This document shows, one piece after another, positions 5,440-23,373 of a stretch of 23,373 nt of DNA. The stretch is taken from IMG/VR virus record IMGVR_UViG_2663763232_000005; one strand, 5' to 3'. The notes under the pieces were generated by a model. That model was given only the letters and a program-made list of their open reading frames with translations, was not told the origin of the DNA and ran no database searches. A program made the position numbers and the translations under genes. Position 1 is the first letter of the stretch, and each line of letters starts with the position of its first letter. Source of the DNA: a virus. Its lineage: Duplodnaviria; Heunggongvirae; Uroviricota; Caudoviricetes.

Positions 5440-5970
5440 TTAGCGAGTCAGAAACAACGAATCTTTATACTTTTGCTGTTGTTCATTTAAATACTTAGCT
5501 GTTTCATCGCTGGCAAATGGAAATATTACCGTATTTTTAGGCATGGTAATTTCTTTTTTGTCCAGCGTCAGAGTAAACATAGGAACATACTGAGCAGAGT
5601 AACGCACCGCAGAAACGAGCTCTAGTTTAGACTCTTCAATAACACTTAAATTATCCAGGCTAACTTTCTCTTCATCTTTTTTCTTTGACGCATTTAAAGT
5701 TTTTATTACTTTATTTAATTTCTCCTGAAAATCCTCCTTAAAGTTTTCAGGATTGCCGTCGACAACAAGAATCTGTTCACCCTGATTATCTGGAAAAATA
5801 ATCTTTGCACTTATCAATTTATTTTCTTTATAAACATCACCAAGTTTTATGGCTCCTCCAGATAACTGAATAATATGTTCATCTTTAAAGGAGATGTTGC
5901 CAGAGATTATGAGAGATGAAAAAATAGCCGCTGCTCCAAGAATTACACTTGCTGTGATATAGCCTTTCAT
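5440..5970 (-). CDS. Moron-encoded secreted or membrane-anchored protein of unknown function
   Basis: 176-aa ORF, markedly AT- and Lys-rich compared with the flanking GC-rich tail genes. N-terminus MKGYITASVILGAAAIFSSLIISG looks like a signal peptide or signal anchor with no lipobox Cys. Bracketed by a promoter-like element upstream and a strong terminator downstream. Confidence 0.6.
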   Translation of the reverse strand: MKGYITASVILGAAAIFSSLIISGNISFKDEHIIQLSGGAIKLGDVYKENKLISAKIIFPDNQGEQILVVDGNPENFKEDFQEKLNKVIKTLNASKKKDEEKVSLDNLSVIEESKLELVSAVRYSAQYVPMFTLTLDKKEITMPKNTVIFPFASDETAKYLNEQQQKYKDSLFLTR

Positions 5971-6061: not shown

Positions 6062-7894
6062 CTACCAAAATCGGGTATAGCCAACATCGTGATTTATATC
6101 AATGCCACTGGAGCGTGTTTCCGTAACCCGCATACCTGGTGGCATATTTATAAATGATACCTTGATCTCACCATCAACTTTTGGCGCGGTAGCTTTATTA
6201 ATCATGAAGGGATTCGGGCCTGTGGCATCGGAGGCGTTGTTTGCCTGAGCCGGATCCACCGCCGGATAAGGAGTGTATCCCCGTGCCGGTATCCCCGTCC
6301 CATAAGCATCATAAGCACCCGCGCCCCACTGCGCCGAGTTAATGGTATCGACCGTGTCACCGGAACTGTCGGTAAACCATTCAATAATCGGCTTCAGCTT
6401 ATCCCACATATCCTGAAACCACTTAACAACCGGTCCCCAGTTATTGATCACCATCCCCAGCGGCGACCAGGCAAAAACCTTCTTCAGAAGTTCCCGGCCA
6501 GCCTCAAAATAAGGACCAATGGTTTCCCAGAGCTTCTTGAAATAAGGTCCGACAACATCCCAGTTAGTGATAATTAATCCCGCAGCCAGAGCAATCGCCG
6601 TCGCAATCATGCCAATCGGCGTCATCGACATGATCCTGCTGACAATACTGATGGCACTGCCCACGCCCATCAATCCCAGTTTCAGAATCGCAAGACCGGC
6701 AGCAAGCCCGACGACGCCGCGAATAACCCGGGGATTTTCATCCGCAAACTTCGTGAATTTTTCCCCCAACTCCCCCAGCCATTGCGTGATATTTTTAGCG
6801 TCACCAGAAAATGCGCCGCCAATAGCTGCAAGACCGTTAGTTGCGGTCCCCGTCATTGCCTCCCACAGGTTGGACAGCGTACCAAGCTGTGCCTGAACAC
6901 GTTTATTCAGGCTGGCCTGTTTATTCATCTTCTGCTGGATCTGATCGTAACCATCCTTTCCTTTATCGATCAGAGCATTGACCACCTGAAGGGTTTCGGC
7001 ATCATCACCAAATATTGCCTTAAGTACACCTGTTCGCTTAACGTCGGTCAGTTTTCGCAGCTTTGCCAGTTGCTTAAACATGTTATCAAGACCGCCAAAA
7101 CTCCCTTTGCCATCAGTAAAATCGAGCTGTACCCCGAGTTTCTGGCGGGCCATGATTTTATTGACGTCCCTGATTTTCTTAACGCTTAATCCGGACTGGA
7201 TAACTTTTCGCAGGGCATTACCTGCCGACTCCCCGTTCATCCCCATCTGATCCATCATGACACTGATGGGGGCAAGACTCTGTGCAGCCTGAAGACCGTC
7301 CTTATTCACCATCTTCAGAACAGAGCTGGTTTTAGTGAAGAATGACAGCATGTTGGTGTCGTCAACGCCCAGATAAAACGCCTTCTGAATTGTGTCGAAC
7401 AGCCCCATCATGTCTTCTGAGGCCGTTCCGGTAGCATCCTGCATCTTTGCTGCAAACTCGGCAGCCGCTTCCGGTGTTTTTTTCAGTTGTACCGCAAGAT
7501 AAGCTGTCGCTTTACCCACACCACCCAGAATGTTTTCTGCCGGGATCCCCTGACGCACCAGCATCTGCATCATGTTCTGGAAATCAGCCGTTGTACCGGG
7601 TAGCTGGTTACCCAGGCCAATAGCCAGTTTATTGATGTCCTGAAAGCTCTTTCCAACCTCGCCGTTCGCATCCATCATGGCGACTTTCAGCCCGGTAGCG
7701 GCGTTTTCCTGATTGGCATAAGATTTCAGGGAAAGCGTCAGCCCCGCTGCCAGTCCGCCACCAAGCGCCAGCCCACCCTGTGACGCTTCTTCCGCCTGGC
7801 GTTTAAATCCCCGGATTTTCTTTTGCATTTTCGACAGCGCGGGAGAAAGCCTGTCGACACCGGTGATCAACGCCTTAAGCTCAAATTCAGCCAT
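6062..7894 (-). CDS. Tail tape measure protein
   Basis: 610-aa ORF directly downstream of the frameshifted chaperone pair; Gly/Ala-rich hydrophobic central stretch and helical-looking N-terminal part, typical of tape measure proteins. Confidence 0.8.
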   Translation of the reverse strand: MAEFELKALITGVDRLSPALSKMQKKIRGFKRQAEEASQGGLALGGGLAAGLTLSLKSYANQENAATGLKVAMMDANGEVGKSFQDINKLAIGLGNQLPGTTADFQNMMQMLVRQGIPAENILGGVGKATAYLAVQLKKTPEAAAEFAAKMQDATGTASEDMMGLFDTIQKAFYLGVDDTNMLSFFTKTSSVLKMVNKDGLQAAQSLAPISVMMDQMGMNGESAGNALRKVIQSGLSVKKIRDVNKIMARQKLGVQLDFTDGKGSFGGLDNMFKQLAKLRKLTDVKRTGVLKAIFGDDAETLQVVNALIDKGKDGYDQIQQKMNKQASLNKRVQAQLGTLSNLWEAMTGTATNGLAAIGGAFSGDAKNITQWLGELGEKFTKFADENPRVIRGVVGLAAGLAILKLGLMGVGSAISIVSRIMSMTPIGMIATAIALAAGLIITNWDVVGPYFKKLWETIGPYFEAGRELLKKVFAWSPLGMVINNWGPVVKWFQDMWDKLKPIIEWFTDSSGDTVDTINSAQWGAGAYDAYGTGIPARGYTPYPAVDPAQANNASDATGPNPFMINKATAPKVDGEIKVSFINMPPGMRVTETRSSGIDINHDVGYTRFW

Positions 7895-13560: not shown

Positions 13561-14247
13561 TTAGAAGTTCAGATTTTTCAGTGCATTCAGTGCAGAGCCC
13601 ACATCCTCAGCGTCGCGCAGGGACAGTGCGCCATAGCCCCCGGCCATGAATGCTTTGGCCTGGGTACGGGAGAGTCCGACATCACGCAGGACTCTTTCGA
13701 TTTTTTTCTGTTCGGGGATTTCCCCGCGGGCCAGTGCGTTCTTGACGTCGCTGATCCGCGCCTCGTCGTTAGACGGGAACGTCACCAGGCTGACTTCCCA
13801 GAGGTCGATTTCTTTCAGCAGAAAGGCTTCTTTCGTCCGGTCGTATTCCCAGTCCTTCAGGACGTACCCAATAGAAAGGCCGGTTAACGAACCGGCCTTC
13901 ATGTGTGCATGTGCGCGTTTTGCCAGGGGATCATCATCAATGAGCAACCGCCCCCTGACGTAAAGCCCGACATCGTCTTCCTTCATTTCGGTGTAAACAC
14001 CGATGGGTTCATCCATGCGGTGCTGCCAGAGCAGCGCAGGTAACGCTTTTCGGTCACTCCACGCCCGCAGGGAAGCAGCAAATGCCCCGGACATCACCAC
14101 ATCATCGTGGCTGTCCTTTACACCAAAGACGGAGCCATACCCTTCAAACTCACCGGAGTCACTGACAGATTTCAGACTCAGCGGTACATCAAGACGTTGT
14201 TTCGTCTGCATTGGCGTTATCCTTCTGCTTACCGGCTTTACTGCCAT
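13561..14247 (-). CDS. Prohead protease, HK97 family
   Basis: 228-aa ORF between portal and major capsid; N-terminal region (GYGSVFGVKDSHDDVVMSGAF) matches what I recall of this protease family. The true start may be an internal Met, because the track ORF overlaps the portal end by 59 nt. Confidence 0.8.
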   Translation of the reverse strand: MAVKPVSRRITPMQTKQRLDVPLSLKSVSDSGEFEGYGSVFGVKDSHDDVVMSGAFAASLRAWSDRKALPALLWQHRMDEPIGVYTEMKEDDVGLYVRGRLLIDDDPLAKRAHAHMKAGSLTGLSIGYVLKDWEYDRTKEAFLLKEIDLWEVSLVTFPSNDEARISDVKNALARGEIPEQKKIERVLRDVGLSRTQAKAFMAGGYGALSLRDAEDVGSALNALKNLNF

Positions 14248-15430
14248 CGGAGGGTTTCGTGGTCATGTTCATCGGTGTGAGATAGACATTCCCACCGGGA
14301 CGCGGATTCATATCTTCCAGGTCGCGGCAGTCATTGGGAGAGTAAATTCCCCAGTTAATCCCGGTGGCGTAGGCTTCAAAATGGGACTTCATATCCCCGC
14401 GCAGTAACGCCCCGGCGTTAAATTTGGCGTAATAAACGCCCTGCTTACTTTTTCGTACCAGTCCGGTGTTGATCCGCTGTTCGATGCGGGTCAGATACGG
14501 CACCAGTGAATAGTTGATAAATCCGAGCCCCAGTTCTTCGATATTGTTGAAGGTGGCGCGATCGGTGTTCTGCACCATGTGCAATGGCACCCGGAACAGA
14601 CGACAGATTTCTTCAAGCTGAAACTTGCGGGTTTCCAGGAACTGGCTGTCCTCTGCGTTCAACGCCATCGACTTCCAGTCCAGCCCCATCTCAAGGATCA
14701 TCGGGCGGTGAGCATTGCCAAGCCCGGTGTGACGCTCCTCAAAATCTTTCTTCAGGCGCTCATAAGCCTGATCCGACAGCGTCTGCTCTGTACGCAACAC
14801 ACCCGACGTCACCGCGCCATTGCTGAACAGTCTGGCCCCGTGCTCTTCGGTCGCTGCCGCCAGCGATATTGCCTCGCGGGCATAGGCGATGGGATTCAGT
14901 CCCACCAGACCGTCCAGCGTCAGCGTGCGCACATGCCAGATATCTTCCTGGCTCAGTACATCCGTGGAGCCGTCCGGAAATGTGACCTGGTAAACCGGTT
15001 CCCAGCTACTGTTAAGCTTCGGTACCACACAACCGGGATCGACGGGCAGCAGTTCAGCCACTTCGCCAAATGCTTTCACTTTGTAGGCGTAAAAATTTCC
15101 CCTCAGACACAGACAGGTGACCACCAGCTCCCAGAACTCCTGCGGCGTCATATAGCTATTGGGATGCGTGGAGATCAGTTTATGCAGACGTTCGCCGGTG
15201 GCTCTCTGCTTCAGGCTGCCGTTCAGGTGATACAGATTGCAGGGCAACATCCCGACCGACTCTGCCAGCACTCTGACGCAGGAAAAAACCGCCGTCAGTC
15301 GCATGGCTCGCTGACTGCTGATCTGCTTTCCGGTATAGGTGTCGTAGGACAACCCGATGGCATCCGCCAGCTCTGCTGGCGTGGTCACCGGTGCGTCACT
15401 TTTTCGTTGAAATAATCCCGAAAAGAACAC
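14189..15430 (-). CDS. Portal protein, HK97 family
   Basis: 413-aa ORF downstream of terL, size and position typical of the portal. The annotated start is a GTG overlapping the stop of the small upstream ORF. Confidence 0.85.
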   Translation of the reverse strand: MFFSGLFQRKSDAPVTTPAELADAIGLSYDTYTGKQISSQRAMRLTAVFSCVRVLAESVGMLPCNLYHLNGSLKQRATGERLHKLISTHPNSYMTPQEFWELVVTCLCLRGNFYAYKVKAFGEVAELLPVDPGCVVPKLNSSWEPVYQVTFPDGSTDVLSQEDIWHVRTLTLDGLVGLNPIAYAREAISLAAATEEHGARLFSNGAVTSGVLRTEQTLSDQAYERLKKDFEERHTGLGNAHRPMILEMGLDWKSMALNAEDSQFLETRKFQLEEICRLFRVPLHMVQNTDRATFNNIEELGLGFINYSLVPYLTRIEQRINTGLVRKSKQGVYYAKFNAGALLRGDMKSHFEAYATGINWGIYSPNDCRDLEDMNPRPGGNVYLTPMNMTTKPSDGSKAGKQKDNANADETTS

Positions 15431-15612
15431 TATTTACCTCCACCAACAGACAGCTGTGTACGGTCGAGATATCGCGCCACCAGCCACGACCAGAACAGGC
15501 ACAACGCCCCGGCAACAACAAACCCCGCCGGGGGATAAATCAGCCAGGCACCATACGCCAGCAAAAGCGCCCCCAGCACGCCCACCAGAGGCGCGAGAAT
15601 CAGCATGATCAT
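15430..15612 (-). CDS. Small two-helix membrane protein between terL and portal
   Basis: 60-aa [63 protein letters not shown] with two hydrophobic helices. GAGGT lies 5 nt before the ATG, and its stop overlaps the portal GTG (TAGTG). Confidence 0.45.
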
Positions 15613-15623
15613 AATTACCTCAG

Positions 15624-17357
15624 TTAAAGCGAGCGGATCCCATAGGACTCAATGTGGTCAGACAGCGTGTCTTCTTTCTCGTACAGCATGGCTCTGCCAA
15701 CCGCCATAATCAGCGCAACTGCACCATCGATTTTGTTTTCCGCCTGCTCCTTGACAGGCTTCACCACATCATCGTTACCCGGAATGGTTTTGCCGACCAC
15801 GTTGCCGATACACCAGGTCATGATGGGATTGCCGTCATGATGAAAGCGCCCCGATTCAATCGCCGCTTCCAGCTCTTTCATCGGATCGGACATGTTGGTG
15901 TAATTCTGAATGATGGTGATGGGGTTCAGGTCTTCATCAGCAAGGTCATGCGACAGCCCGGTCGCCCCGAAGGGGTCGATGGGTGACTCACTGACCGGGC
16001 TGATTTTGTTCGCCGCTTTGGCCTCCTCGAGGATGTAGCGATAATCCACCTCCGCACCAGCGGTAACAGTCAGAACGCCCATTTCCACCCATTTCTGAAA
16101 GCGTTCGGCTGTCCGGCGATCTTCATTTTTCTCGACGCTGTACACCGTGTCATACGGTACCCAGAAACGCGGGGCTACACTGTAGTAATGCGTTTTACCG
16201 TCAATCTCGCGGGTATAAAGTCGCGCCATGCTGTTCATATCCAGCTTACGCGCCAGGTCAAAGGCCAGAATGCACGGCTGCCCCTCGAACTGCTCAAGGG
16301 TCAGTGATTTATCCTCGCAGCTCTGCCAGCTCACCAGGTTGAAATACGCCGAACGTGCCGACACCCAGATATTGAGGTGTTTTGTTTTAAAGACGTTTGC
16401 CAGACGGGCGTTATTTTTCGCACGCTGCTGCTGACTTAACAAAAATTCGCGATAAACCGACACGCCAATATTTGGATTGGCTTTTTCCAGCACCTGCGGG
16501 TCGGTCCAGTCGTCACCTTCATCAACGGTATAGATGATCCCGAACAGTTCATCGTTAGGCACCAAGCCGTTGAGCATCTCGATGACTTCCCGCCGCTTGT
16601 CGTAGCACGGCCCCTCAATGTTGTACCCGGCGGTGGTGATGGCCCACATCAGTGGCTGACGTCGCGCGCCCATCCCGGTAAGCATCGTGGTGTAAAGTGC
16701 ATCTGTGGCATGCTCGTGATATTCATCCACCACAGCACAGTGGGGTGATGAACCATCACCGGGGTTACCGATCAGCGGTTCAAACCGCGCGCCATCCTCC
16801 GGACGGTTCATGTTTGAGGCGTTAACCTCAATCCCGAACGCTTCCGTCAGCATGGGTGTGCGTTTACACATCAGTCGCGCCGGGCGAAAGACTTCCCACG
16901 CCTGTTTCTCTGTCGTGGCACCGGAATACACTTCCGCGCCAAACTCGTTATCACAGGCAAAACAATACAGGGCAACACCGGCAGAGATTGCCGATTTGCC
17001 GTTCTTACGGGGGATTTCGGTATACACCTCCCGGAAGCGGCGCAGCCGGGTACCTTTATTGACCCAGCCAAACGCACAGCAGATCACAAAGAGCTGCCAC
17101 GGCTCCAGCGTGATGGGCATCCGTTTGAATGCCCACTCACCCTTGGTATGCGGCAACAGCTGAATAAATTTGGCGGCCCGTTCAGCCAGGTCCTTGTCGA
17201 AGCGGTAACGAAACGACTTACTTTTTTCCGCCATCAGGTCATCAAGATGGCGCTGGCAGGCCTGAATCACAAACTGGCAGGCCACAATCTTTCCGCGAAC
17301 GACATCCCGGGCATACTGATTGGCAGCATTTACGTTGGGGTAAGATTTCCGGCTCAT
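15624..17357 (-). CDS. Terminase large subunit
   Basis: 577-aa ORF, size typical of terL, with ATGA overlap with the small subunit gene upstream and the portal gene downstream. Confidence 0.9.
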
Positions 17358-17973: not shown

Positions 17974-18324
17974 TCACTTAAGCCGTTCACGGGCCGTCTT
18001 CGCCTTATGACACGGCCAGCACAGACTCTGCAGATTACTGTCGGCATCAGTGCCGCCATGTACTTTAGGGATGATGTGGTCAACGGTTTTCGCTTCACGC
18101 GCCACACCAGCACGCAGACATAACTGACACAGGCCTTTGTCACGTTGCAGCACACGCACACGGATAACATCCCACTTAGAACCATAACCGCGCTGATGAC
18201 GGGATCGTCCTGACTTGTATTGCTTCCAGCCTTCGCTTTTGTGGCTTTCGCAGTAGCCTGACGGGTCTGTCGTGGTATTACGGCAGCCGCGAACGCGGCA
18301 GGCTTTTGGAGTTCGAGGGGGCAT
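17974..18324 (-). CDS. HNH endonuclease
   Basis: 116-aa ORF with Cys-rich motifs (CRVRGC...CESH, HIIPKVHGG, CWPCH). AGGAA sits about 9 nt before the ATG. Adjacent to terS, as in HK97. Confidence 0.85.
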   Translation of the reverse strand: MPPRTPKACRVRGCRNTTTDPSGYCESHKSEGWKQYKSGRSRHQRGYGSKWDVIRVRVLQRDKGLCQLCLRAGVAREAKTVDHIIPKVHGGTDADSNLQSLCWPCHKAKTARERLK

Positions 18325-18350: not shown

Positions 18351-18623
18351 CTATTTGCCTGCTGCCAGCAAAGCGTTACGGCGCATCTCGATACTTCGAA
18401 TCCCCGCTTTGTCAATATTGCATTGTCCCAACGCCGAAAGCAGGCTCACATTCAGATCCAGACTGGCCCCATAGGTCAGCGGCTCGGGAATGACTGGCTG
18501 GGGAGTTTCAGTAGTCAGGCTTGCTGGCAACGGTACCGCCGGAATCGGTACGTAAACTGTTCGCGTACTTCCGCAACCGGTCAGCAGCGGCAGCAGGCAC
18601 ATGACGTGAAGCACAATCATCAT
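18351..18623 (-). CDS. Rz1-like o-spanin (outer-membrane lipoprotein)
   Basis: +1-frame ORF starting inside Rz, with lipobox LLTGC and a Pro-rich mature region (VYVPIPAVPLPASLTTETPQPVIPEP). It extends 157 nt past the Rz stop. Start is ambiguous between ATG 18623 and ATG 18689. Confidence 0.6.
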   Translation of the reverse strand: MMIVLHVMCLLPLLTGCGSTRTVYVPIPAVPLPASLTTETPQPVIPEPLTYGASLDLNVSLLSALGQCNIDKAGIRSIEMRRNALLAAGK

Positions 18624-18900
18624 CCGCAACAGCCACTTTGATATCTTCCTGGGTTCTCTGTGACTCCAGTGCGATCTGCTGTTTTGCATGCTGGTTAGCC
18701 TCTATAACTGTATTGATGATTTGCAGTGATTGCAGAACGTTACGGGTAATGGCAGTTGCTGATTCAGCATTTCGTACAGCCTCATCAGCACGCTCCTTTT
18801 CGTGCTGATATTTGCTGTAGTAATGTCCAGCAGACCAGATGAAGGAACCAATGACGCTAACAACGAAGGCAACAATAACCAGCTTATATCTCAGCTTCAT
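18508..18900 (-). CDS. Rz-like i-spanin
   Basis: 130-aa ORF with an N-terminal transmembrane helix (LVIVAFVVSVIGSFIW) and a charged helical periplasmic domain, directly after the endolysin gene. Confidence 0.7.
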   Translation of the reverse strand: MKLRYKLVIVAFVVSVIGSFIWSAGHYYSKYQHEKERADEAVRNAESATAITRNVLQSLQIINTVIEANQHAKQQIALESQRTQEDIKVAVADDDCASRHVPAAAADRLRKYANSLRTDSGGTVASKPDY

Positions 18901-19360
18901 TTACTACCCCACCAGCTTTTTTAAATCGGGCAATCAGGTCACCGATTTTATGTTCATACTGACCGTAACCTGCACCAGGTAACGACGCCCAGATATTGCT
19001 GCAACGGTCGATTGCCTGACGAATACTGCCGCGGTCAATCATCGGTAAAGCACCACGCTCTTTAATCTGCTGCAGAGCTACAGCGTCCTGGCTTTCTGGA
19101 GAAAAATCTTTCAGGCCAAGCTGTTTACGGTAAGCATCCCACCAGCGTGAAAGAAGCTGGTAACGTCCGGCAGCTGTTGATTTGAGTTTGGGGTTTAGCG
19201 TGACAAGTTTGCGAGGGTGATCGGAGTAATCAGTGAACAGTTCGCCACCAACAATAACATCATAACCGTGGTTACGTGTCGGTTGTCGCCCGTTATCCGT
19301 TCCTTCTGACCATGCCACCATATCCAGGAAAGCTTTACGCTGGGAATTTAGTGCCTGCAT
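18884..19360 (-). CDS. Endolysin, lambda R-type lytic transglycosylase
   Basis: 158-aa ORF (NSQRKAFLDMVAWSEGTDNGRQPTRNHGYDVIVGGELFTDYSDHPRKLVTLNPKLKSTAAGRYQLLSRWWDAYRKQLGLKDF...) that is near-identical over most of its length to the lambda R sequence as I remember it. Confidence 0.85.
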   Translation of the reverse strand: MQALNSQRKAFLDMVAWSEGTDNGRQPTRNHGYDVIVGGELFTDYSDHPRKLVTLNPKLKSTAAGRYQLLSRWWDAYRKQLGLKDFSPESQDAVALQQIKERGALPMIDRGSIRQAIDRCSNIWASLPGAGYGQYEHKIGDLIARFKKAGGVVNEAEI

Positions 19361-19363
19361 AAA

Positions 19364-19699
19364 TTACTCCTTCGAGCTACCAAATTTGTTACCGATTACT
19401 CGCATTGCAGCCCCACGAATAGCATCGACACCGATCAGCCCCACGCCACCACCAATGGCAACAGAAAGCGATTTAGGCCATCCGACATATTCAAGAGCGG
19501 ATGCAAAGGTCAGCGTCAGAGCGCCACATAGCAAAATCTCGAGCGTTTTTCGCTTCCAGCCACCACCACCGCCAAAATAGGCGATGCGCAAACCAGCCAT
19601 AACGATCGACATAATCACTGCACCCAGCGGTGTGTCTCCACGCCACCAGCTCTGAAACAACTCCAGCCAGTCCGGCCAGGTATTTGGGTTATGAGGCAT
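19364..19699 (-). CDS. Holin (class I-like, three predicted TM helices)
   Basis: Start proposed at ATG 19699 with GAGGTG about 15 nt upstream, rather than the track start at 19795, which would overlap the methyltransferase. About 111 aa with three hydrophobic segments, immediately upstream of the endolysin. Confidence 0.6.
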   Translation of the reverse strand: MPHNPNTWPDWLELFQSWWRGDTPLGAVIMSIVMAGLRIAYFGGGGGWKRKTLEILLCGALTLTFASALEYVGWPKSLSVAIGGGVGLIGVDAIRGAAMRVIGNKFGSSKE

Positions 19700-19742
19700 T
19701 TCGTCATCTCTCACCTCGCGATATTTGCGGGTGCTGTGTTGG

Positions 19743-19768
19743 AAATAAAAAGGCCACGCAACGTGGCC
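19743..19768 (-). terminator. Intrinsic terminator between the methyltransferase and holin genes
   Basis: On the minus strand GGCCACG-TTG-CGTGGCC (7-bp stem) is followed by TTTTTATTTCC, starting 8 nt after the methyltransferase stop. Confidence 0.6.
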
Positions 19769-19775
19769 ACCAGAA

Positions 19776-20828
19776 TTATTTCCCCACCAGTTCACTTACC
19801 TCTTTCACCGTCTGATTAAACCGCTCTGACTCAAGTTCAACACCTAACGCCCGACGCCCCAGCGCCATTGCTGCTTTTATTGTGGAACCGGATCCCATAA
19901 AGAAATCAGCAACCAGATCACCAGGTCGACTACTGGCATTGATTATTTGCCGGAGCATATCCGCCGGTTTCTCGCACGGATGTTTACCCGGGTAGAACTG
20001 AACGGGCTTATGCGTCCAGACATCGGTATAAGGCACGGAGACTGATACGGAGAAATAGCGCCGGAGAGATTTAAACTCATCCAGCAATTCAGAATATTTG
20101 CGATTCAGTGAATCATAAGATGCCACCAGCTGGTGGTGTGGTTGTTCCAGTTGTTGTTCCTGAAACTTCTCTGCCGCTATACGGGAAAACAGTGCCTGTA
20201 ACTTCCGATAGTCAGCCTCATTCGGCAACTGCCACTGACTGGCACCAAACCAGTGGGAAACCATATTTTTCTTACCTGTGGCTTCGGCAATTTGTTTTGC
20301 CGTTATACCCAGTTCGGCACGAGCATCCCTGAAATACGATATCAGCGGTGCCATTATGTGCTGTTTGAGTTCCCTTTCTTTTGCCGCATAGCCGTCACTT
20401 TTGCCGCGATATGGCCCCTGGTAATGTTCAGCAAACAGAACGCGCTCTGTAGCGGGGAAATATGCCCGCAGGCTTTCTTTATTACACCCGTTCCATCGTC
20501 CGGACGGCTTCGCCCAGATGATATGGTTAAGCACGTTGAAACGTTCACGCATCATGATCTCGATATCAGATGCGAGGCGATGTCCACAGAACAGGTAAAG
20601 GCTTCCGGCTGGTTTCAGTACCCGCCAGAACTGGGCCAGACAGTAGTCCAGCCACTTCAGGTAATCTTCGTCCCCTTTCCACTGATTGTCCCAGCCGTTG
20701 GGCTTCACTTTGAAGTACGGCGGATCGGTAACAATCAGATCAATGGAATCATCAGGCAAGGACTGAATAAAATGCAGGCAATCAGCGTTGATTAAATCAA
20801 CACTGTTTATTTTTACAGTATTTTTCAT
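19776..20828 (-). CDS. DNA methyltransferase, beta-class N6-adenine/N4-cytosine (orphan, no endonuclease partner in window)
   Basis: 350-aa ORF with motif IV DPPY near the N-terminus (IDLIVTDPPYF) and motif I FxGxG near the C-terminus (VADFFMGSGST), the order diagnostic of beta-class amino-methyltransferases. No Shine-Dalgarno is visible before the ATG. Confidence 0.85.
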   Translation of the reverse strand: MKNTVKINSVDLINADCLHFIQSLPDDSIDLIVTDPPYFKVKPNGWDNQWKGDEDYLKWLDYCLAQFWRVLKPAGSLYLFCGHRLASDIEIMMRERFNVLNHIIWAKPSGRWNGCNKESLRAYFPATERVLFAEHYQGPYRGKSDGYAAKERELKQHIMAPLISYFRDARAELGITAKQIAEATGKKNMVSHWFGASQWQLPNEADYRKLQALFSRIAAEKFQEQQLEQPHHQLVASYDSLNRKYSELLDEFKSLRRYFSVSVSVPYTDVWTHKPVQFYPGKHPCEKPADMLRQIINASSRPGDLVADFFMGSGSTIKAAMALGRRALGVELESERFNQTVKEVSELVGK

Positions 20829-20978: not shown

Positions 20979-21206
20979 TTACTGGCAGCGTCTGAATTTA
21001 TTCCCGTACCCGCCGTTATCCTTCGCCAGACCCGCCAGAACTAACTGAGTCAGTATTAACTGGCACCGGGCTTCGCTTACTCCGGTAGTTCTCGTCATCA
21101 TGCGTGGCGTTACCCACTTGTCAGCAGGTAAGAAATGAAGGACTGCGGCGGCGGTTTCTGTCATATCTTGCTGTTTTAGCATGTCTTTTTCCCTTCTGGT
21201 TAACAT
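20979..21206 (-). CDS. Small hypothetical protein, possibly winged-helix DNA-binding
   Basis: 75-aa ORF; an internal start at 21182 (M9) is preceded by GAAGGGA. The segment VTPRMMTRTTGVSEARCQLILTQLVLAGLA looks like a helix-turn-helix. Lies between the tR'-like terminator and the methyltransferase. Confidence 0.4.
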   Translation of the reverse strand: MLTRREKDMLKQQDMTETAAAVLHFLPADKWVTPRMMTRTTGVSEARCQLILTQLVLAGLAKDNGGYGNKFRRCQ

Positions 21207-21300
21207 GACATACCAATAACTCTTGTCTAAAAAGCCAGCAAGATAAAAAGTCAGTATTCACGACCACCAGCGTGTTTACTGTACTGCACCAGGTTTACAG

Positions 21301-21330
21301 GTACAAAAAAACCGCTCGACGGCGGGTTTA
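21301..21330 (-). terminator. Candidate late-operon terminator (tR'-like), weak
   Basis: On the minus strand a short GC stem (CCGC-CGTCGA-GCGG) is followed by seven T. The stem is only 4 bp, so strength is uncertain. Confidence 0.3.
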
Positions 21331-21482
21331 AGCTGTGTGGCGAAGTAACCACTCTTAACACAGTAAACGAGAAAATGCGGACCGCGTAAGTTTTTTTTGA
21401 TAGATTATGCATATGCAACGAACCCAGGATCATTAACAAATCACAACCCATTGATTCAAAAGGATAATAAAGGGTAATTTTA

Positions 21483-22415
21483 ATGACTACTACAGCCACT
21501 TCCGCGCCACTAACTAAACAAAAAAAAATGCGTATCGGTTTCTTCCAAAGCTCCTCAGGAACGAAGTCAACTACATCAAATGCACAACTTGCATTTGACA
21601 ACATGTATACAACCATTGTTACACCTTCGCAAAATTCTTATACCGCTGAGTTTGATAAGAAAAAATTAAAGATTGTATTCTTAGAAAAAGACGCACAGGC
21701 GGAGTTCTATTTTGGTTATCTATCATGCTCTCGTGATGGTTTCCACTTACCTTATATTGGTGATGAAAATTGGGATGAGCACAATATTCCGTTAGATGAT
21801 AAAAAATATATAGTCGAACGCACTTATTTTATTTACTACTATAAGAAAGACATTCTTGTTTTATCTCAAAATCATTTAGGACCTAAAGTTTCCGATTTAG
21901 CATTTCTTTTATTCAATTTTTCTGAAGAAAACAAACCTGTAGCGTTTGAGGCAATTTGGAAAAAAGAAAGTGTAAAAGAACTACTTGAAACAGGAAGCAC
22001 TTTACGTAGCTGTGAAATTACACTCGCCGCTCCACGTAATTTTAGCGCAACGGATTATGACCTTTCGAATTCATTTTCCAAAAGTATGATTGAAATGATG
22101 GCTGGGATGGGCGGTTCGCATTTAAAACTATCACTTAGAGGTAGAGCATCGCAACGTAAATTAATCCGTGGTTATCTCAGTGATGAAGTAAAAAGTGGAA
22201 TAAAGGAATTAATAGAAAAAGTTCCTCACTTATTACGTAAAGCTAATGTCACTGAACCTAAAAATACTCATTCAAGGAGTCTTCTCAATCAAGTTCTGAT
22301 CAGTGAAAAAAACATTAACACAAAAGATGGCTACGCAAAAGAAACAGATGTGCGTACTGCCTTGATCAGTGCTAAAATTGAACATGGTCAGTATTTAAAG
22401 CAATATGAAATCTGA
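21483..22415 (+). CDS. Hypothetical soluble protein, first gene of an AT-rich two-gene cargo cassette (candidate defence/exclusion sensor)
   Basis: 310-aa ORF on the strand opposite to all phage late genes; AT-rich and Lys/Asn/Ile-rich. AAGGG lies 8 nt before the ATG. No motif I recognise; SSSGTKST is not a canonical Walker A. Confidence 0.6.
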   Translation: MTTTATSAPLTKQKKMRIGFFQSSSGTKSTTSNAQLAFDNMYTTIVTPSQNSYTAEFDKKKLKIVFLEKDAQAEFYFGYLSCSRDGFHLPYIGDENWDEHNIPLDDKKYIVERTYFIYYYKKDILVLSQNHLGPKVSDLAFLLFNFSEENKPVAFEAIWKKESVKELLETGSTLRSCEITLAAPRNFSATDYDLSNSFSKSMIEMMAGMGGSHLKLSLRGRASQRKLIRGYLSDEVKSGIKELIEKVPHLLRKANVTEPKNTHSRSLLNQVLISEKNINTKDGYAKETDVRTALISAKIEHGQYLKQYEI

Positions 22416-22429
22416 TCTTATTTTTAAGG

Positions 22430-22882
22430 ATGATGATTATGCTTATTAAAGTTTTAATTAACATAGTTATCAGTGGGCTGTTAGCTTGGGTGCTTGGGAA
22501 ATACCTAGCGCCTATGGCTCACTCTGATATCTTAAGTACAGCCGGAGTGTTATCTACGGTGGCAGGCATTTTGTTTGGTTTTGTATTGGCCGCTATTTCC
22601 ATCTTCAGTTCTGCAAGTTCAAGTACTGATGGAATTATTTTTGCTTTAAAACAAAACAAGATTTTACCTAAAATTATTCATAACCTGTTATCTACGGGAG
22701 TTACCTTAATATTAGCATGTATTTTCCCGCTGATAGCAATGTTTATAAATGAAAAAATCACCATTACCTCTGTAAGACTTGATTTCGCCCTAACCTTATA
22801 TGGTTTCTCGACCCTGATCGTATCAATAGTTTCATTTGCAAGTACCTGGAGAAAAATAAACTGGATATTACCCCACATATAA
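22430..22882 (+). CDS. Hypothetical integral membrane protein with four predicted TM helices, second gene of the cassette (candidate effector)
   Basis: 150-aa ORF starting 14 nt after the upstream stop. AAGGA precedes the start; the ATG at 22439 has the best spacing. Four hydrophobic segments at roughly residues 5-27, 38-62, 78-106 and 118-140. Confidence 0.6.
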   Translation: MMIMLIKVLINIVISGLLAWVLGKYLAPMAHSDILSTAGVLSTVAGILFGFVLAAISIFSSASSSTDGIIFALKQNKILPKIIHNLLSTGVTLILACIFPLIAMFINEKITITSVRLDFALTLYGFSTLIVSIVSFASTWRKINWILPHI

Positions 22883-22886
22883 TATT

Positions 22887-22910
22887 AAGCAGGTGCAAGC
22901 ACACCTGCTT
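22887..22910. promoter_or_regulatory. Hairpin between the convergent Q gene and cassette ends (possible bidirectional terminator)
   Basis: AAGCAGGTG-CAAGCA-CACCTGCTT, a perfect 9-bp stem between the cassette stop (22882) and the Q stop (22926). Flanks are A/U-rich on the minus-strand side (UUAAUAUUAUAU) but there is no clean U-tract. Confidence 0.4.
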
Positions 22911-22925
22911 ATCCAAACCAAGATA

Positions 22926-23288
22926 TTAATCCATATCTAAGCTAACATTTAGAATAGCTAGACAACCTTCTATAAATCCCTCAGCCATCTGTATCTCAAT
23001 GCGTATTATTTTCTCATCCTTTTTGCGAGCTTTAGCGAGCTTTCTTTTAGAGATACCGTATAGGTAATGGGCAACAAGAAGCGAGTGTTCTTCAGGTCTT
23101 TTTTGCTTTAGACGAGCAAGACAACCTTCAATAATTAATGCATCACTATCTGAACAAGCCTGACGTGTTTTGCTTGTATAGGGAAGAAGCCCTTTAAACC
23201 CAGCAGCTATAGGCGAATAGTCTACCCCAGAACTATCACTCGCCGCCCATGCACCCCAACGATCCAGAACCATCTGAATATCACGCAT
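22926..23288 (-). CDS. Late-gene antiterminator Q (phage 82 / QuuD-like family)
   Basis: Track ORF runs to 23366, but the ATG at 23288 is preceded by GGAG 7 nt upstream and gives MRDIQMVLDRWGAWAASDSSGVDYSPIAAGFKGLLP..., which resembles the QuuD-type Q N-terminus as I recall it. Confidence 0.65.
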   Translation of the reverse strand: MRDIQMVLDRWGAWAASDSSGVDYSPIAAGFKGLLPYTSKTRQACSDSDALIIEGCLARLKQKRPEEHSLLVAHYLYGISKRKLAKARKKDEKIIRIEIQMAEGFIEGCLAILNVSLDMD

Positions 23289-23373
23289 CAACTTTCTCCA
23301 CAAAATCAGGCCAGCATGACCTGCTCCCCGTTGATTAGTACACCCCGATGTTAGTAATGTCTTCATAAGCCAC

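What the first reader, a model, noticed from the sequence alone, without database searches (positions are those of the whole stretch)
15430..15612. Small two-helix membrane protein gene between terminase and portal
HK97-type head modules normally run terL straight into portal. Here a 60-aa ORF with two hydrophobic helices, a good Shine-Dalgarno (GAGGT) and a stop overlapping the portal GTG is inserted. Unlike the AT-rich cargo it has backbone-like GC content, so it may be a conserved but unannotated small membrane protein.
Basis: partly seen in the sequence, partly recalled or inferred. Interest (0 to 1): 0.35.

Follow-up and report, generated by a model that had tools for sequence, protein, structure and literature searches.

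The report
ymfR: portal-linked small phage membrane protein
The 60-codon ORF is real, but it is the already annotated prophage gene ymfR, a two-helix membrane protein of unknown function that sits directly upstream of the portal gene in hundreds of HK97-like phage lineages.

Summary
The ORF exists exactly as described: window 15430..15612, minus strand, 60 aa, GAGGT Shine-Dalgarno, stop TAG sharing one base with the portal GTG, backbone-like GC. It is not unannotated. It is ymfR, 59/60 identical to b1150 of the E. coli K-12 e14 prophage. PGAP names it in about 1,600 E. coli genomes, and it belongs to PHROG 502 ("membrane protein").

The membrane part is under purifying selection (dN/dS 0.12-0.30). 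A profile search finds 382 clusters of 45-80 aa proteins sharing the core [17 protein letters not shown]. In nearly every context examined, from Enterobacterales to Alpha- and Betaproteobacteria, Geobacter and Ruminococcaceae, the gene lies directly upstream of an HK97-family portal gene. The junction is usually an overlapping stop/start (TGATG or TAATG). There is no promoter of its own and no deviant GC, so it is a long-standing late-operon gene, not a recent moron.

It is not universal. HK97 itself and three portal lineages 61-65% identical to this one run terL straight into portal.

No functional study was found. My best guess, with low confidence, is an oligomeric inner-membrane hairpin that gives portal or prohead initiation a membrane site. 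An autonomous late membrane function is nearly as likely.

The gene is already known, the function is open, and the interest is modest.

The parts
15430..15612 (-). ymfR coding sequence (60 aa plus stop), PHROG 502 family
   Evidence: ORF list. PGAP annotates the identical sequence as ymfR. phrog_502 E=1.5e-27. 59/60 identical to K-12 b1150.
15617..15621 (-). Shine-Dalgarno GAGGT of ymfR, 4 nt before the ATG
   Evidence: Sequence. A GAGG at the same distance is conserved in enterobacterial relatives.
15541..15609 (-). Transmembrane helix 1 (residues 2-24), with conserved G11, G14 and G21 on one face
   Evidence: Hydropathy and column conservation. AF2 helix 2-25.
15523..15540 (-). Conserved turn I-Y-P-P-A-G (residues 25-30), predicted on the periplasmic side
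   Evidence: In the family the 6-residue loop carries 0.13 K/R on average, against 1.75 (N tail) and 2.29 (C tail). The core motif [17 protein letters not shown] is the best conserved part.
15475..15522 (-). Transmembrane helix 2 (residues 31-46), G35 invariant
15433..15474 (-). Variable cytoplasmic tail (residues 47-60). Its last codons carry the portal ribosome-binding site.
   Evidence: dN/dS is roughly neutral in the tail. The tail varies in A1 except for the terminal GG[EDK].
15437..15441 (-). GGAGG inside the 3' end of ymfR, 6 nt before the portal GTG: Shine-Dalgarno for portal
   Evidence: Sequence. Purine-rich SD-like codons occur at the same place in relatives.
15428..15430 (-). Portal start codon GTG, sharing base 15430 with the ymfR stop TAG (translational coupling)
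   Evidence: PGAP uses the same portal start. An overlapping TGATG/TAATG junction is conserved in distant loci.
14189..15430 (-). HK97-family portal gene, downstream partner
   Evidence: TIGR01537 2.2e-76 and PF04860 1.2e-107.
15624..17357 (-). Terminase large subunit gene, upstream neighbour. Its TAA stop is 11 nt before the ymfR ATG.
   Evidence: PF03354 and PF20441; sequence.

Best explanation
Shown: this is ymfR, a genuine late-operon phage gene. It encodes a 60-aa helical hairpin predicted to sit in the inner membrane with both ends in the cytoplasm and the conserved YPPAG turn at the outer face. It belongs to a large family (PHROG 502) that has stayed directly upstream of HK97-family portal genes across distant bacterial phyla. 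Ribosomes finishing ymfR terminate on top of the portal start codon, and the portal Shine-Dalgarno is built from the last ymfR codons, so the two are very probably translated as a coupled pair.

Inferred (the mechanism I commit to, with low confidence): the hairpin is inserted co-translationally and self-associates in the membrane through its glycine-lined helix faces. It then provides a membrane site at which the portal protein, made from the same mRNA, oligomerises and starts prohead assembly. This would be an accessory role comparable to the membrane-bound gp40/gp20 initiation step of phage T4. The role is helpful rather than indispensable, because some related head modules lack the gene.
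For: Identity: ymfR annotation, 59/60 identity to K-12 b1150; phrog_502; all 95 diverse members match it.

Real gene under selection: dN/dS is 0.12-0.30 over codons 1-46. There are 382 clusters at E<=1e-3. All 120 motif matches in viral contigs are in-frame small hydrophobic ORFs.

Topology and fold: the K/R distribution is N tail 1.75, loop 0.13, C tail 2.29. AF2 gives a hairpin with pLDDT 86.

Not a moron: there is no promoter-like site next to it, and its GC and GC3 match the head genes.

Portal linkage: nearly all of the 38 genome loci show terL, then the small ORF, then portal, even where portal is 28-39% and terL about 21% identical to the window's. The stop/start gap is -1 or -4 nt in most divergent loci. 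In an independent sample not seeded on DNA motifs, 7 of 7 contexts have a portal immediately downstream. In Serratia, terL has been exchanged (38-39% identity) while the small gene (73-77%) and portal (85-90%) stayed together.

Positional analogue: Sfi21 orf59c (Pfam DUF1056, 59 aa, two hydrophobic helices) lies between terL and portal in a Gram-positive phage.

Self-association: G14, G21, G30 and G35 are invariant or nearly so. Four independent natural fusions of two hairpins exist, one of them directly upstream of a portal.

The T4 gp20/gp40 precedent is from established knowledge and was not tested here.
Against: - The gene is dispensable in related head modules. HK97 and L319, L325 and L327/328 (portal 61-65% and terL about 60-65% identical) couple terL directly to portal.
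- The conserved residues are inside the membrane and in the outer-face turn. The cytoplasmic tails, the only parts that could reach a cytoplasmic portal, are variable and nearly neutral.
- Across 105 locus pairs the small protein's identity does not track portal better than terL (partial rank correlation 0.07 against 0.38).
- A crude test for an amphipathic membrane-binding N-terminus on the portals was negative.
- A few family members have no portal next to them (L032, L330/L331).
- No experimental paper on YmfR, PHROG 502 or DUF1056 function was found.
- Translation of the protein has not been demonstrated here. Only e14 transcript induction has been reported (PMC10012262).
Confidence: 0.35

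Rival explanations
1. An autonomous late membrane effector. The hairpin acts on the cell membrane or on a conserved host membrane protein, for example in late superinfection exclusion, tuning of lysis timing, or a small oligomeric pore. Its place upstream of portal persists only because the overlapping stop/start and the embedded portal SD make it hard to remove.
For: - The conserved part is intramembrane plus the outer-face turn, and the cytoplasmic tails are free to vary.
- The gene is absent from related functional head modules.
- PHROGs files the family under 'moron, auxiliary metabolic gene and host takeover'.
- The ORF is intact in the decayed e14 element of K-12, where terL and portal are truncated.
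- Glycine-rich helix faces and natural tandem fusions fit an oligomeric membrane assembly.
Against: - Host-directed accessory genes usually turn over quickly. This one keeps the same motif and the same position from E. coli to Ruminococcaceae.
- It has no promoter or terminator of its own and no deviant GC.
- There is no match to holin families above noise (3 of 95 members at E about 0.09) and no match to PADLOC models.
- The phage already has a complete lysis cassette: holin PF05106, Rz-like, and Rz1/LysC.
- This model does not explain why an unrelated two-helix protein of the same size sits at the same place in Sfi21.
Confidence: 0.3
2. Mainly a translational device. The short ORF recruits ribosomes at its own SD and hands them to the portal start, setting the portal:terminase ratio. 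On this view the peptide itself matters little.
For: - The stop/start overlap and the SD inside the last codons are conserved.
- The terminal GG[EDK] residues are conserved although the rest of the tail is not. This looks like nucleotide-level rather than protein-level constraint.
- In relatives lacking the gene, portal is coupled directly to terL.
Against: A spacer ORF would not keep a two-helix membrane fold, invariant glycines and the [17 protein letters not shown] core across phyla, nor show dN/dS of 0.12-0.30 while synonymous sites are near saturation.
Confidence: 0.1
3. A virion or ejection component. Copies of the hairpin are carried with the portal in the head and leave first on infection, helping DNA cross the inner membrane.
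For: Coupled synthesis with portal would give comparable copy numbers. The family occurs with both contractile-tailed phages (this window, SfV-like) and siphoviral phages (PY54), which points to a head-linked rather than tail-linked role.
Against: Two strongly hydrophobic helices with positive-inside flanks predict co-translational membrane insertion in the producing cell, not a soluble capsid cargo. No virion proteomics listing this protein was found. The gene is dispensable in relatives.
Confidence: 0.07
4. A lambda gpW-like head-tail joining protein, as some GenBank records label the homologues.
For: It has the same position as lambda W (between terL and portal) and a similar size. Records vB_EcoM-720R4, 689R6, 606R7 and Salmonella phage As1 carry that label. 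DUF1056 proteins also get 'putative head-tail joining protein' labels.
Against: There is no Pfam hit to any gpW or head-tail family. The protein is two hydrophobic membrane helices. gpW is a soluble protein (established knowledge). The window has separate head-tail connector and head-closure genes, annotated as such in the near-identical locus. The labels appear to rest on position only.
Confidence: 0.02

Closest known systems
YmfR (b1150) of the E. coli K-12 cryptic prophage e14; RefSeq WP_000605604.1 'protein YmfR'
   Same: It is the same gene. It is 59/60 identical to K-12 YmfR and 100% identical to WP_000605604.1. It has the same length and the same position between the terL remnant (aaaE/ymfN) and the portal remnant (beeE).
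   Different: Here it lies in an apparently complete SfV/e14-type prophage with full terL and portal. In K-12 both neighbours are truncated. No function is recorded for either copy.
PHROG 502 ('membrane protein', category moron/auxiliary/host takeover)
   Same: The window protein matches at E=1.5e-27 over the full length. All 95 diverse relatives match the same PHROG.
   Different: The moron category is not borne out. There is no promoter of its own, GC is backbone-like, and synteny and translational coupling with portal are deep.
Pfam DUF1056 (PF06341), e.g. Streptococcus phage Sfi21 orf59c
   Same: It has the same size (59 aa), two hydrophobic helices and the same place between terL and an HK97-type portal. 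It is also functionally uncharacterised.
   Different: No detectable sequence relationship. hhalign probability is 0.15%, equal to reversed-sequence controls, and there are no DUF1056 hits among the 95 members. In Sfi21 there is a 17-nt gap with a separate SD rather than an overlap.
Phage T4 gp40 / portal gp20 membrane-bound prohead initiation (functional analogy, from established knowledge)
   Same: A small membrane-associated helper for the portal at the start of head assembly. It is helpful but conditionally dispensable.
   Different: No sequence or structural comparison was made. T4 gene 40 is not adjacent to gene 20. HK97 proheads are known to assemble with portal from cloned genes without such a factor.
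Class II holins / pinholins (e.g. phage 21 S68)
   Same: Small, two transmembrane helices, glycine-rich helix faces, late expression.
   Different: It is not in the lysis cassette, and the phage has its own S-type holin at 19364..19795. There is no holin-family match above noise. Helix 1 is strongly hydrophobic. The Met1/Met3 pair is not conserved in relatives.
Lambda gpW (head-tail joining protein)
   Same: Position between terL and portal, and about 60-70 aa.
   Different: gpW is soluble, whereas this protein is a membrane hairpin with no family match. The 'protein W' labels on homologues are positional.
Membrane superinfection-exclusion proteins in structural modules (HK97 gp15, T4 Imm; from established knowledge)
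   Same: Small inner-membrane phage proteins encoded among or near virion genes.
   Different: Those proteins are lineage-restricted, and in HK97 the gene is moron-like and expressed from the prophage. This family is ancient, coupled to portal and without a promoter of its own.

Membership tests
YmfR / PHROG 502 | Significant full-length match to the family profile | tested here: met
   phrog_502 E=1.5e-27, residues 1-55 on profile positions 3-57 of 58. 59/60 identity to K-12 YmfR.
YmfR / PHROG 502 | 45-80 aa, two hydrophobic helices joined by a 6-residue turn with the core [SA][YF]G[AV]W[LM]IYPPAG[FY]I | tested here: met
   Sequence [14 protein letters not shown]. Family conservation. AF2 hairpin.
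YmfR / PHROG 502 | Located directly upstream of an HK97-family portal gene, usually with stop/start overlap | tested here: met
   TAGTG junction in the window. The same arrangement occurs in distant loci.
Pfam DUF1056 (PF06341) | Match to the Pfam HMM above the gathering score (22.2 bits) | tested here: not met
   No hit for the window protein at E<=0.1. DUF1056 is absent from the families most often matched, even weakly, by the 95 relatives. Sfi21 orf59c scores 39.5 bits as a positive control.
Pfam DUF1056 (PF06341) | Profile-profile similarity to DUF1056 members | tested here: not met
   hhalign probability 0.15% and E 0.39. Reversed controls give 0.19-0.21%.
Lambda gpW head-tail joining family | Sequence-family match and a soluble fold | tested here: not met
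   No Pfam match. Predicted as two membrane helices.
Holins (class II / pinholin) | Match to a holin family, or adjacency to the endolysin in the lysis cassette | tested here: not met
   Only 3 of 95 members give a weak Phage_holin_3_6 hit (best E 0.093). The gene lies about 3.7 kb from the holin/endolysin/Rz cluster at 18351..19795.
Holins (class II / pinholin) | Lethal hole formation and triggering of lysis | not testable with these tools
   Needs expression and membrane-potential assays.
Moron (independently expressed accessory insert) | Own promoter and/or terminator, and base composition different from the flanking module | tested here: not met
   No promoter-like site near the gene. GC 0.596 and GC3 0.67 against 0.54-0.59 and 0.65-0.66 for neighbours. 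Translationally coupled at its 3' end.
T4 gp40-type portal assembly helper | Physical or genetic requirement for portal ring assembly at the membrane | not testable with these tools
   Analogy only. It needs mutant phenotypes, localisation and interaction assays.

The most novel reading that the evidence does not exclude
YmfR-family hairpins are the membrane component of a portal initiation site. If so, prohead assembly in a large share of HK97-like phages starts on the cytoplasmic membrane, as in T4, and is organised by a 60-aa protein translated in tandem with portal. The unrelated DUF1056 proteins of Gram-positive phages would then be a convergent solution to the same problem.
Probability: 0.2. 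Interest if true: 0.65.

Novelty: already known. Interest (0 to 1): 0.3.

Why it matters
The HK97-type head module is one of the best studied assembly systems in virology. Yet a gene embedded in it, in hundreds of lineages and even in E. coli K-12, has no known function and is filed as a generic 'membrane protein' or mislabelled 'protein W'.

The data here show that it is ancient, under selection and tied to the portal gene by translational coupling, but can be lost. That makes a simple, testable question: what does a membrane hairpin do for a cytoplasmic capsid-assembly module?

The practical value today is mostly in correcting annotation. The gene is not unannotated, not a moron and not gpW.

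Tried and rejected
- **Pfam, NCBIfam and PADLOC scans** of the protein and of 95 relatives gave only sub-threshold hits to unrelated membrane families.
- **PDB sequence search** with the family profile found nothing below E=0.1.
- **Foldseek** of the AF2 model against viral structures returned only uncharacterised small hairpins, none at E<=0.001.
- **Homology to DUF1056** was rejected.
- **A portal N-terminal amphipathic membrane-binding helix.** The idea was that the portals carry such a helix, MinD-like, compensating where ymfR is absent. Hydrophobic moments (0.28-0.61) are no higher than those of other N-termini in the window (0.48 +/- 0.15), so this is not supported.
- **The small gene tracking portal more closely than terL.** Global pairwise-identity correlations do not show this. 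Only one clear terL-swap case does.
- **AF2 of a natural two-hairpin fusion (P0181)** to see how the helices pack gave a low-confidence model (pLDDT 69.5, pTM 0.31), so it is uninformative.
- **A frameshift fusion of YmfR to portal** is ruled out, because the portal frame has a TAA just upstream of its GTG (sequence).
- **A dual-start motif (Met1/Met3)** like lambda S is not conserved in relatives.
- **The terminator-like hairpin inside the ORF** was treated as a chance consensus match in G+C-rich glycine/leucine codons.
- **Literature searches** on ymfR, b1150, IPR020297, DUF1056 and small membrane proteins between terminase and portal found no functional study. The SfV and ST64B genome papers are not held.

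Full report
**Observation.**
The window is a prophage late region read on the minus strand. The order is antiterminator Q, AT-rich cargo, DNA methylase, holin, endolysin, Rz/Rz1, HNH, terS, terL, the small ORF, portal, protease, major capsid protein, and then a Mu-like contractile tail.

The ORF lies at 15430..15612 on the minus strand and encodes 60 aa. It fills the whole gap between terL (15624..17357) and portal (14189..15430). The terL stop TAA is followed by ctGAGGTaatt and then ATG. The ORF ends ...GGT GGA GGT AAA TAG, with the G of TAG serving as the first base of the portal GTG. A GGAGG lies 6 nt before that GTG. GC is 0.596 and GC3 is 0.67, like the head genes. No promoter-like site lies next to it.

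**Identity.**
A megablast of the 451 bases around the ORF hits 1,588 of 5,426 complete E. coli genomes. The feature under the match is annotated 'ymfR: protein YmfR'. In a 100%-identical locus PGAP gives it the same coordinates and the accession WP_000605604.1.

E. coli K-12 carries it as b1150 in the cryptic prophage e14, between the terminase remnant aaaE/ymfN and the portal remnant beeE. That copy is 59/60 identical. It matches PHROG 502, 'membrane protein', at E=1.5e-27. Phages SfI, SfII, SfIV, ST64B (sb3), phiP27, 118970_sal3 and phi467 have copies more than 90% identical. These are labelled membrane protein, hypothetical protein or, in a few records, 'head-tail joining protein W'.

So the gene is neither new nor unannotated. 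There is no Pfam, NCBIfam or PADLOC model for it, no PDB relative, and no paper on its function in the library. The only expression datum found is that ymfR mRNA rises with the other e14 genes under an SOS-inducing treatment (PMC10012262).

**The protein.**
Enterobacterial orthologues down to 58% identity keep the first 46 residues and let the tail vary, except for a terminal GG[EDK]. Nei-Gojobori dN/dS is 0.12-0.30 over codons 1-46 and roughly neutral over codons 47-60.

A profile search of 1.8 billion representative proteins finds 382 clusters at E<=1e-3, almost all 45-80 aa. All 95 members of a diverse subset hit PHROG 502. The consensus is ...(R)D..G..GA.L(I/V)SYGAWL(I/V)YPPAGFIVGG.LLL...AR. 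G21 and G35 are invariant, G14 is at 97% and G30 at 92%.

Basic residues sit in the N tail (mean 1.75) and the C tail (mean 2.29) but not in the 6-residue turn (mean 0.13). This predicts both ends in the cytoplasm and the conserved turn at the outer face of the inner membrane. AlphaFold2 with this alignment gives a helical hairpin, helices 2-25 and 27-56, with pLDDT 86.

Four unrelated lineages have natural in-frame fusions of two hairpins. Together with the glycine-lined helices, this suggests the protein works as an oligomer. This is an inference. An AF2 model of one fusion was too uncertain to use.

**Genomic context.**
A scan of one genome per species with the family alignment returned 38 loci. 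In nearly all of them the small ORF lies between a terL and an HK97-family portal. These include Mangrovibacter, Serratia, Martelella, Reyranella, Shinella, Rhodoferax, Lysobacterales, Geobacter and Ruminococcaceae, where portal is only 28-39% and terL about 21-37% identical to the window's proteins.

That scan was seeded on the motif, so motif conservation there is partly by construction. The neighbourhood is not. In divergent loci the small ORF's stop overlaps or abuts the start of a 409-429 aa portal, with a gap of -1 or -4 nt in most, typically as TGATG or TAATG.

Seven contexts of representative proteins, looked up by exact protein sequence and hence independent of any DNA motif, all have a portal immediately downstream (gaps -26 to +25 nt). 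Several of these go with an S49-type rather than an S78-type protease.

In Serratia, L016 differs from L012, L013 and L017 in terL (38-39% identity) while the small gene (73-77%) and portal (85-90%) stay together. Over all pairs, however, the small protein's identity does not follow portal better than terL. I therefore do not claim a general co-inheritance with portal beyond the physical overlap.

**Limits.**
HK97 itself has terL overlapping portal with nothing between them. In a portal-seeded scan of viral contigs, 73 of 77 loci with enough upstream sequence carry the family, including every portal at least 70% identical to this one. L319, L325 and L327/L328 do not. Their portals are 61-65% identical and their terL of similar relatedness, and terL runs straight into portal. 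A few members (L032, L330/L331) have no recognisable portal beside them. The gene is thus ancient and usually retained, but dispensable.

**A positional analogue.**
Streptococcus phage Sfi21 has orf59c between terL and portal. It is 59 aa with two hydrophobic helices and belongs to Pfam DUF1056. Sources label such proteins 'putative head-tail joining protein' or 'scaffold protein', apparently by position. Profile-profile comparison with the YmfR family gives 0.15% probability, the same as reversed controls. The resemblance is therefore architectural and positional, not demonstrable homology.

**How it most likely works.**
*Shown:* this is a selected, membrane-type hairpin encoded in the late operon. 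Its termination codon sits on the portal start codon, and the portal SD lies in its last codons.

*Inferred:* portal translation is at least partly coupled to it, and the hairpin inserts co-translationally and oligomerises.

*Function:* I favour a portal-linked role, a membrane site for portal oligomerisation or prohead initiation analogous to T4 gp40/gp20, with confidence about 0.35. The reason is that the family's motif and position persist across hosts as different as E. coli and Ruminococcaceae. This points to a phage-intrinsic partner, and an unrelated hairpin occupies the same slot in Gram-positive phages.

Three observations count against this view. The gene can be lost. The conserved residues are in the membrane and the outer turn rather than in the cytoplasmic tails. 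A simple test for a membrane-binding portal N-terminus was negative.

The main rival, at about 0.30, is an autonomous late membrane effector (exclusion, lysis timing or a pore) held in place by the overlapping junction. A pure translational-spacer role (about 0.10) does not explain the protein-level conservation. A virion or ejection role (about 0.07) conflicts with the strongly membrane-type sequence. The gpW label (about 0.02) fails the family and fold tests.

**Verdict.**
As an object it is already known. What this analysis adds is its depth of conservation, its conserved translational coupling to portal, its dispensability in some lineages, and the correction of the 'moron' and 'protein W' labels. 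Interest is modest at 0.3. It would rise if the portal-site hypothesis were confirmed.

Noticed in passing
window 21200-22900: An AT-rich block (GC 0.32-0.40) on the strand opposite to the late operon, between antiterminator Q (22926..23366, minus) and an N6/N4 DNA methylase (19776..20828, minus). It holds a DUF6731 protein (21483..22415, PF20505 2.6e-11) and a 150-aa ORF (22430..22882) with no family hit. Neither is in PADLOC. It looks like cargo, possibly a defence or moron pair.
   Followed up: partly
window 5440-5970 (minus): An AT-rich (GC 0.33-0.42) 176-aa ORF inside the tail module, next to the 610-aa ORF (6062..7894) that appears to be the tape-measure gene. It has no Pfam or PADLOC hit and is a likely moron.
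   Followed up: partly
window 15567-15594 (minus): A terminator-like stem-loop (12 pairs, loop 4, followed by TTTTGCTGGC) inside ymfR codons 7-20. It is probably a chance consensus match in G+C-rich codons. Conservation of the structure was not examined.
   Followed up: no
NC_005069 (Yersinia phage PY54) 2328-2396; also GenBank ON470603, ON470584, ON470580, PQ793804: PY54 has a family member that is not annotated at all. Several E. coli and Salmonella phage records label the ymfR homologue 'head-tail joining protein W', which appears to be a position-based mislabel.
   Followed up: partly
P0152, P0169, P0181, P0257; L248 64-399: Natural in-frame fusions of two YmfR-type hairpins (102-122 aa) occur in four different lineages. 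One is directly upstream of a portal. This suggests the hairpin functions as a dimer or higher oligomer.
   Followed up: partly
L319, L325, L327/L328 (IMG/VR contigs), portal start regions: Related head modules lack the small gene. Their portals have N-termini extended by basic residues (MKFLSKLFSRKS, MGMINKLRGLFGVKG, MNLKSKIGELLGFKS) where ymfR-linked portals start MFFSGLF, MSGLFG or MAGLFG. The meaning is unknown, and a hydrophobic-moment test showed nothing special.
   Followed up: partly
L032 534-749; L330 1500-1808: Family members with no portal next to them. Downstream are small unknown ORFs and then a probable prohead protease (annotated Peptidase_S78 in L330, judged from sequence resemblance in L032). 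These are possibly rearranged or satellite-like elements.
   Followed up: partly
L002 (Edwardsiella hoshinae record), L004 ('Bacillota bacterium' MAG), H31 (OR844959 'Enterococcus phage Efm 3-10', 1764 bp): These records carry DNA whose encoded proteins are 94-100% identical to those of this E. coli-type prophage head region. Contamination or mis-binning is more likely than true host range.
   Followed up: no
window 17974-18324 (minus): An HNH endonuclease gene lies immediately upstream of a P27-family terS. This is the usual HNH-terminase pairing of HK97-like cos phages and is ordinary.
   Followed up: no
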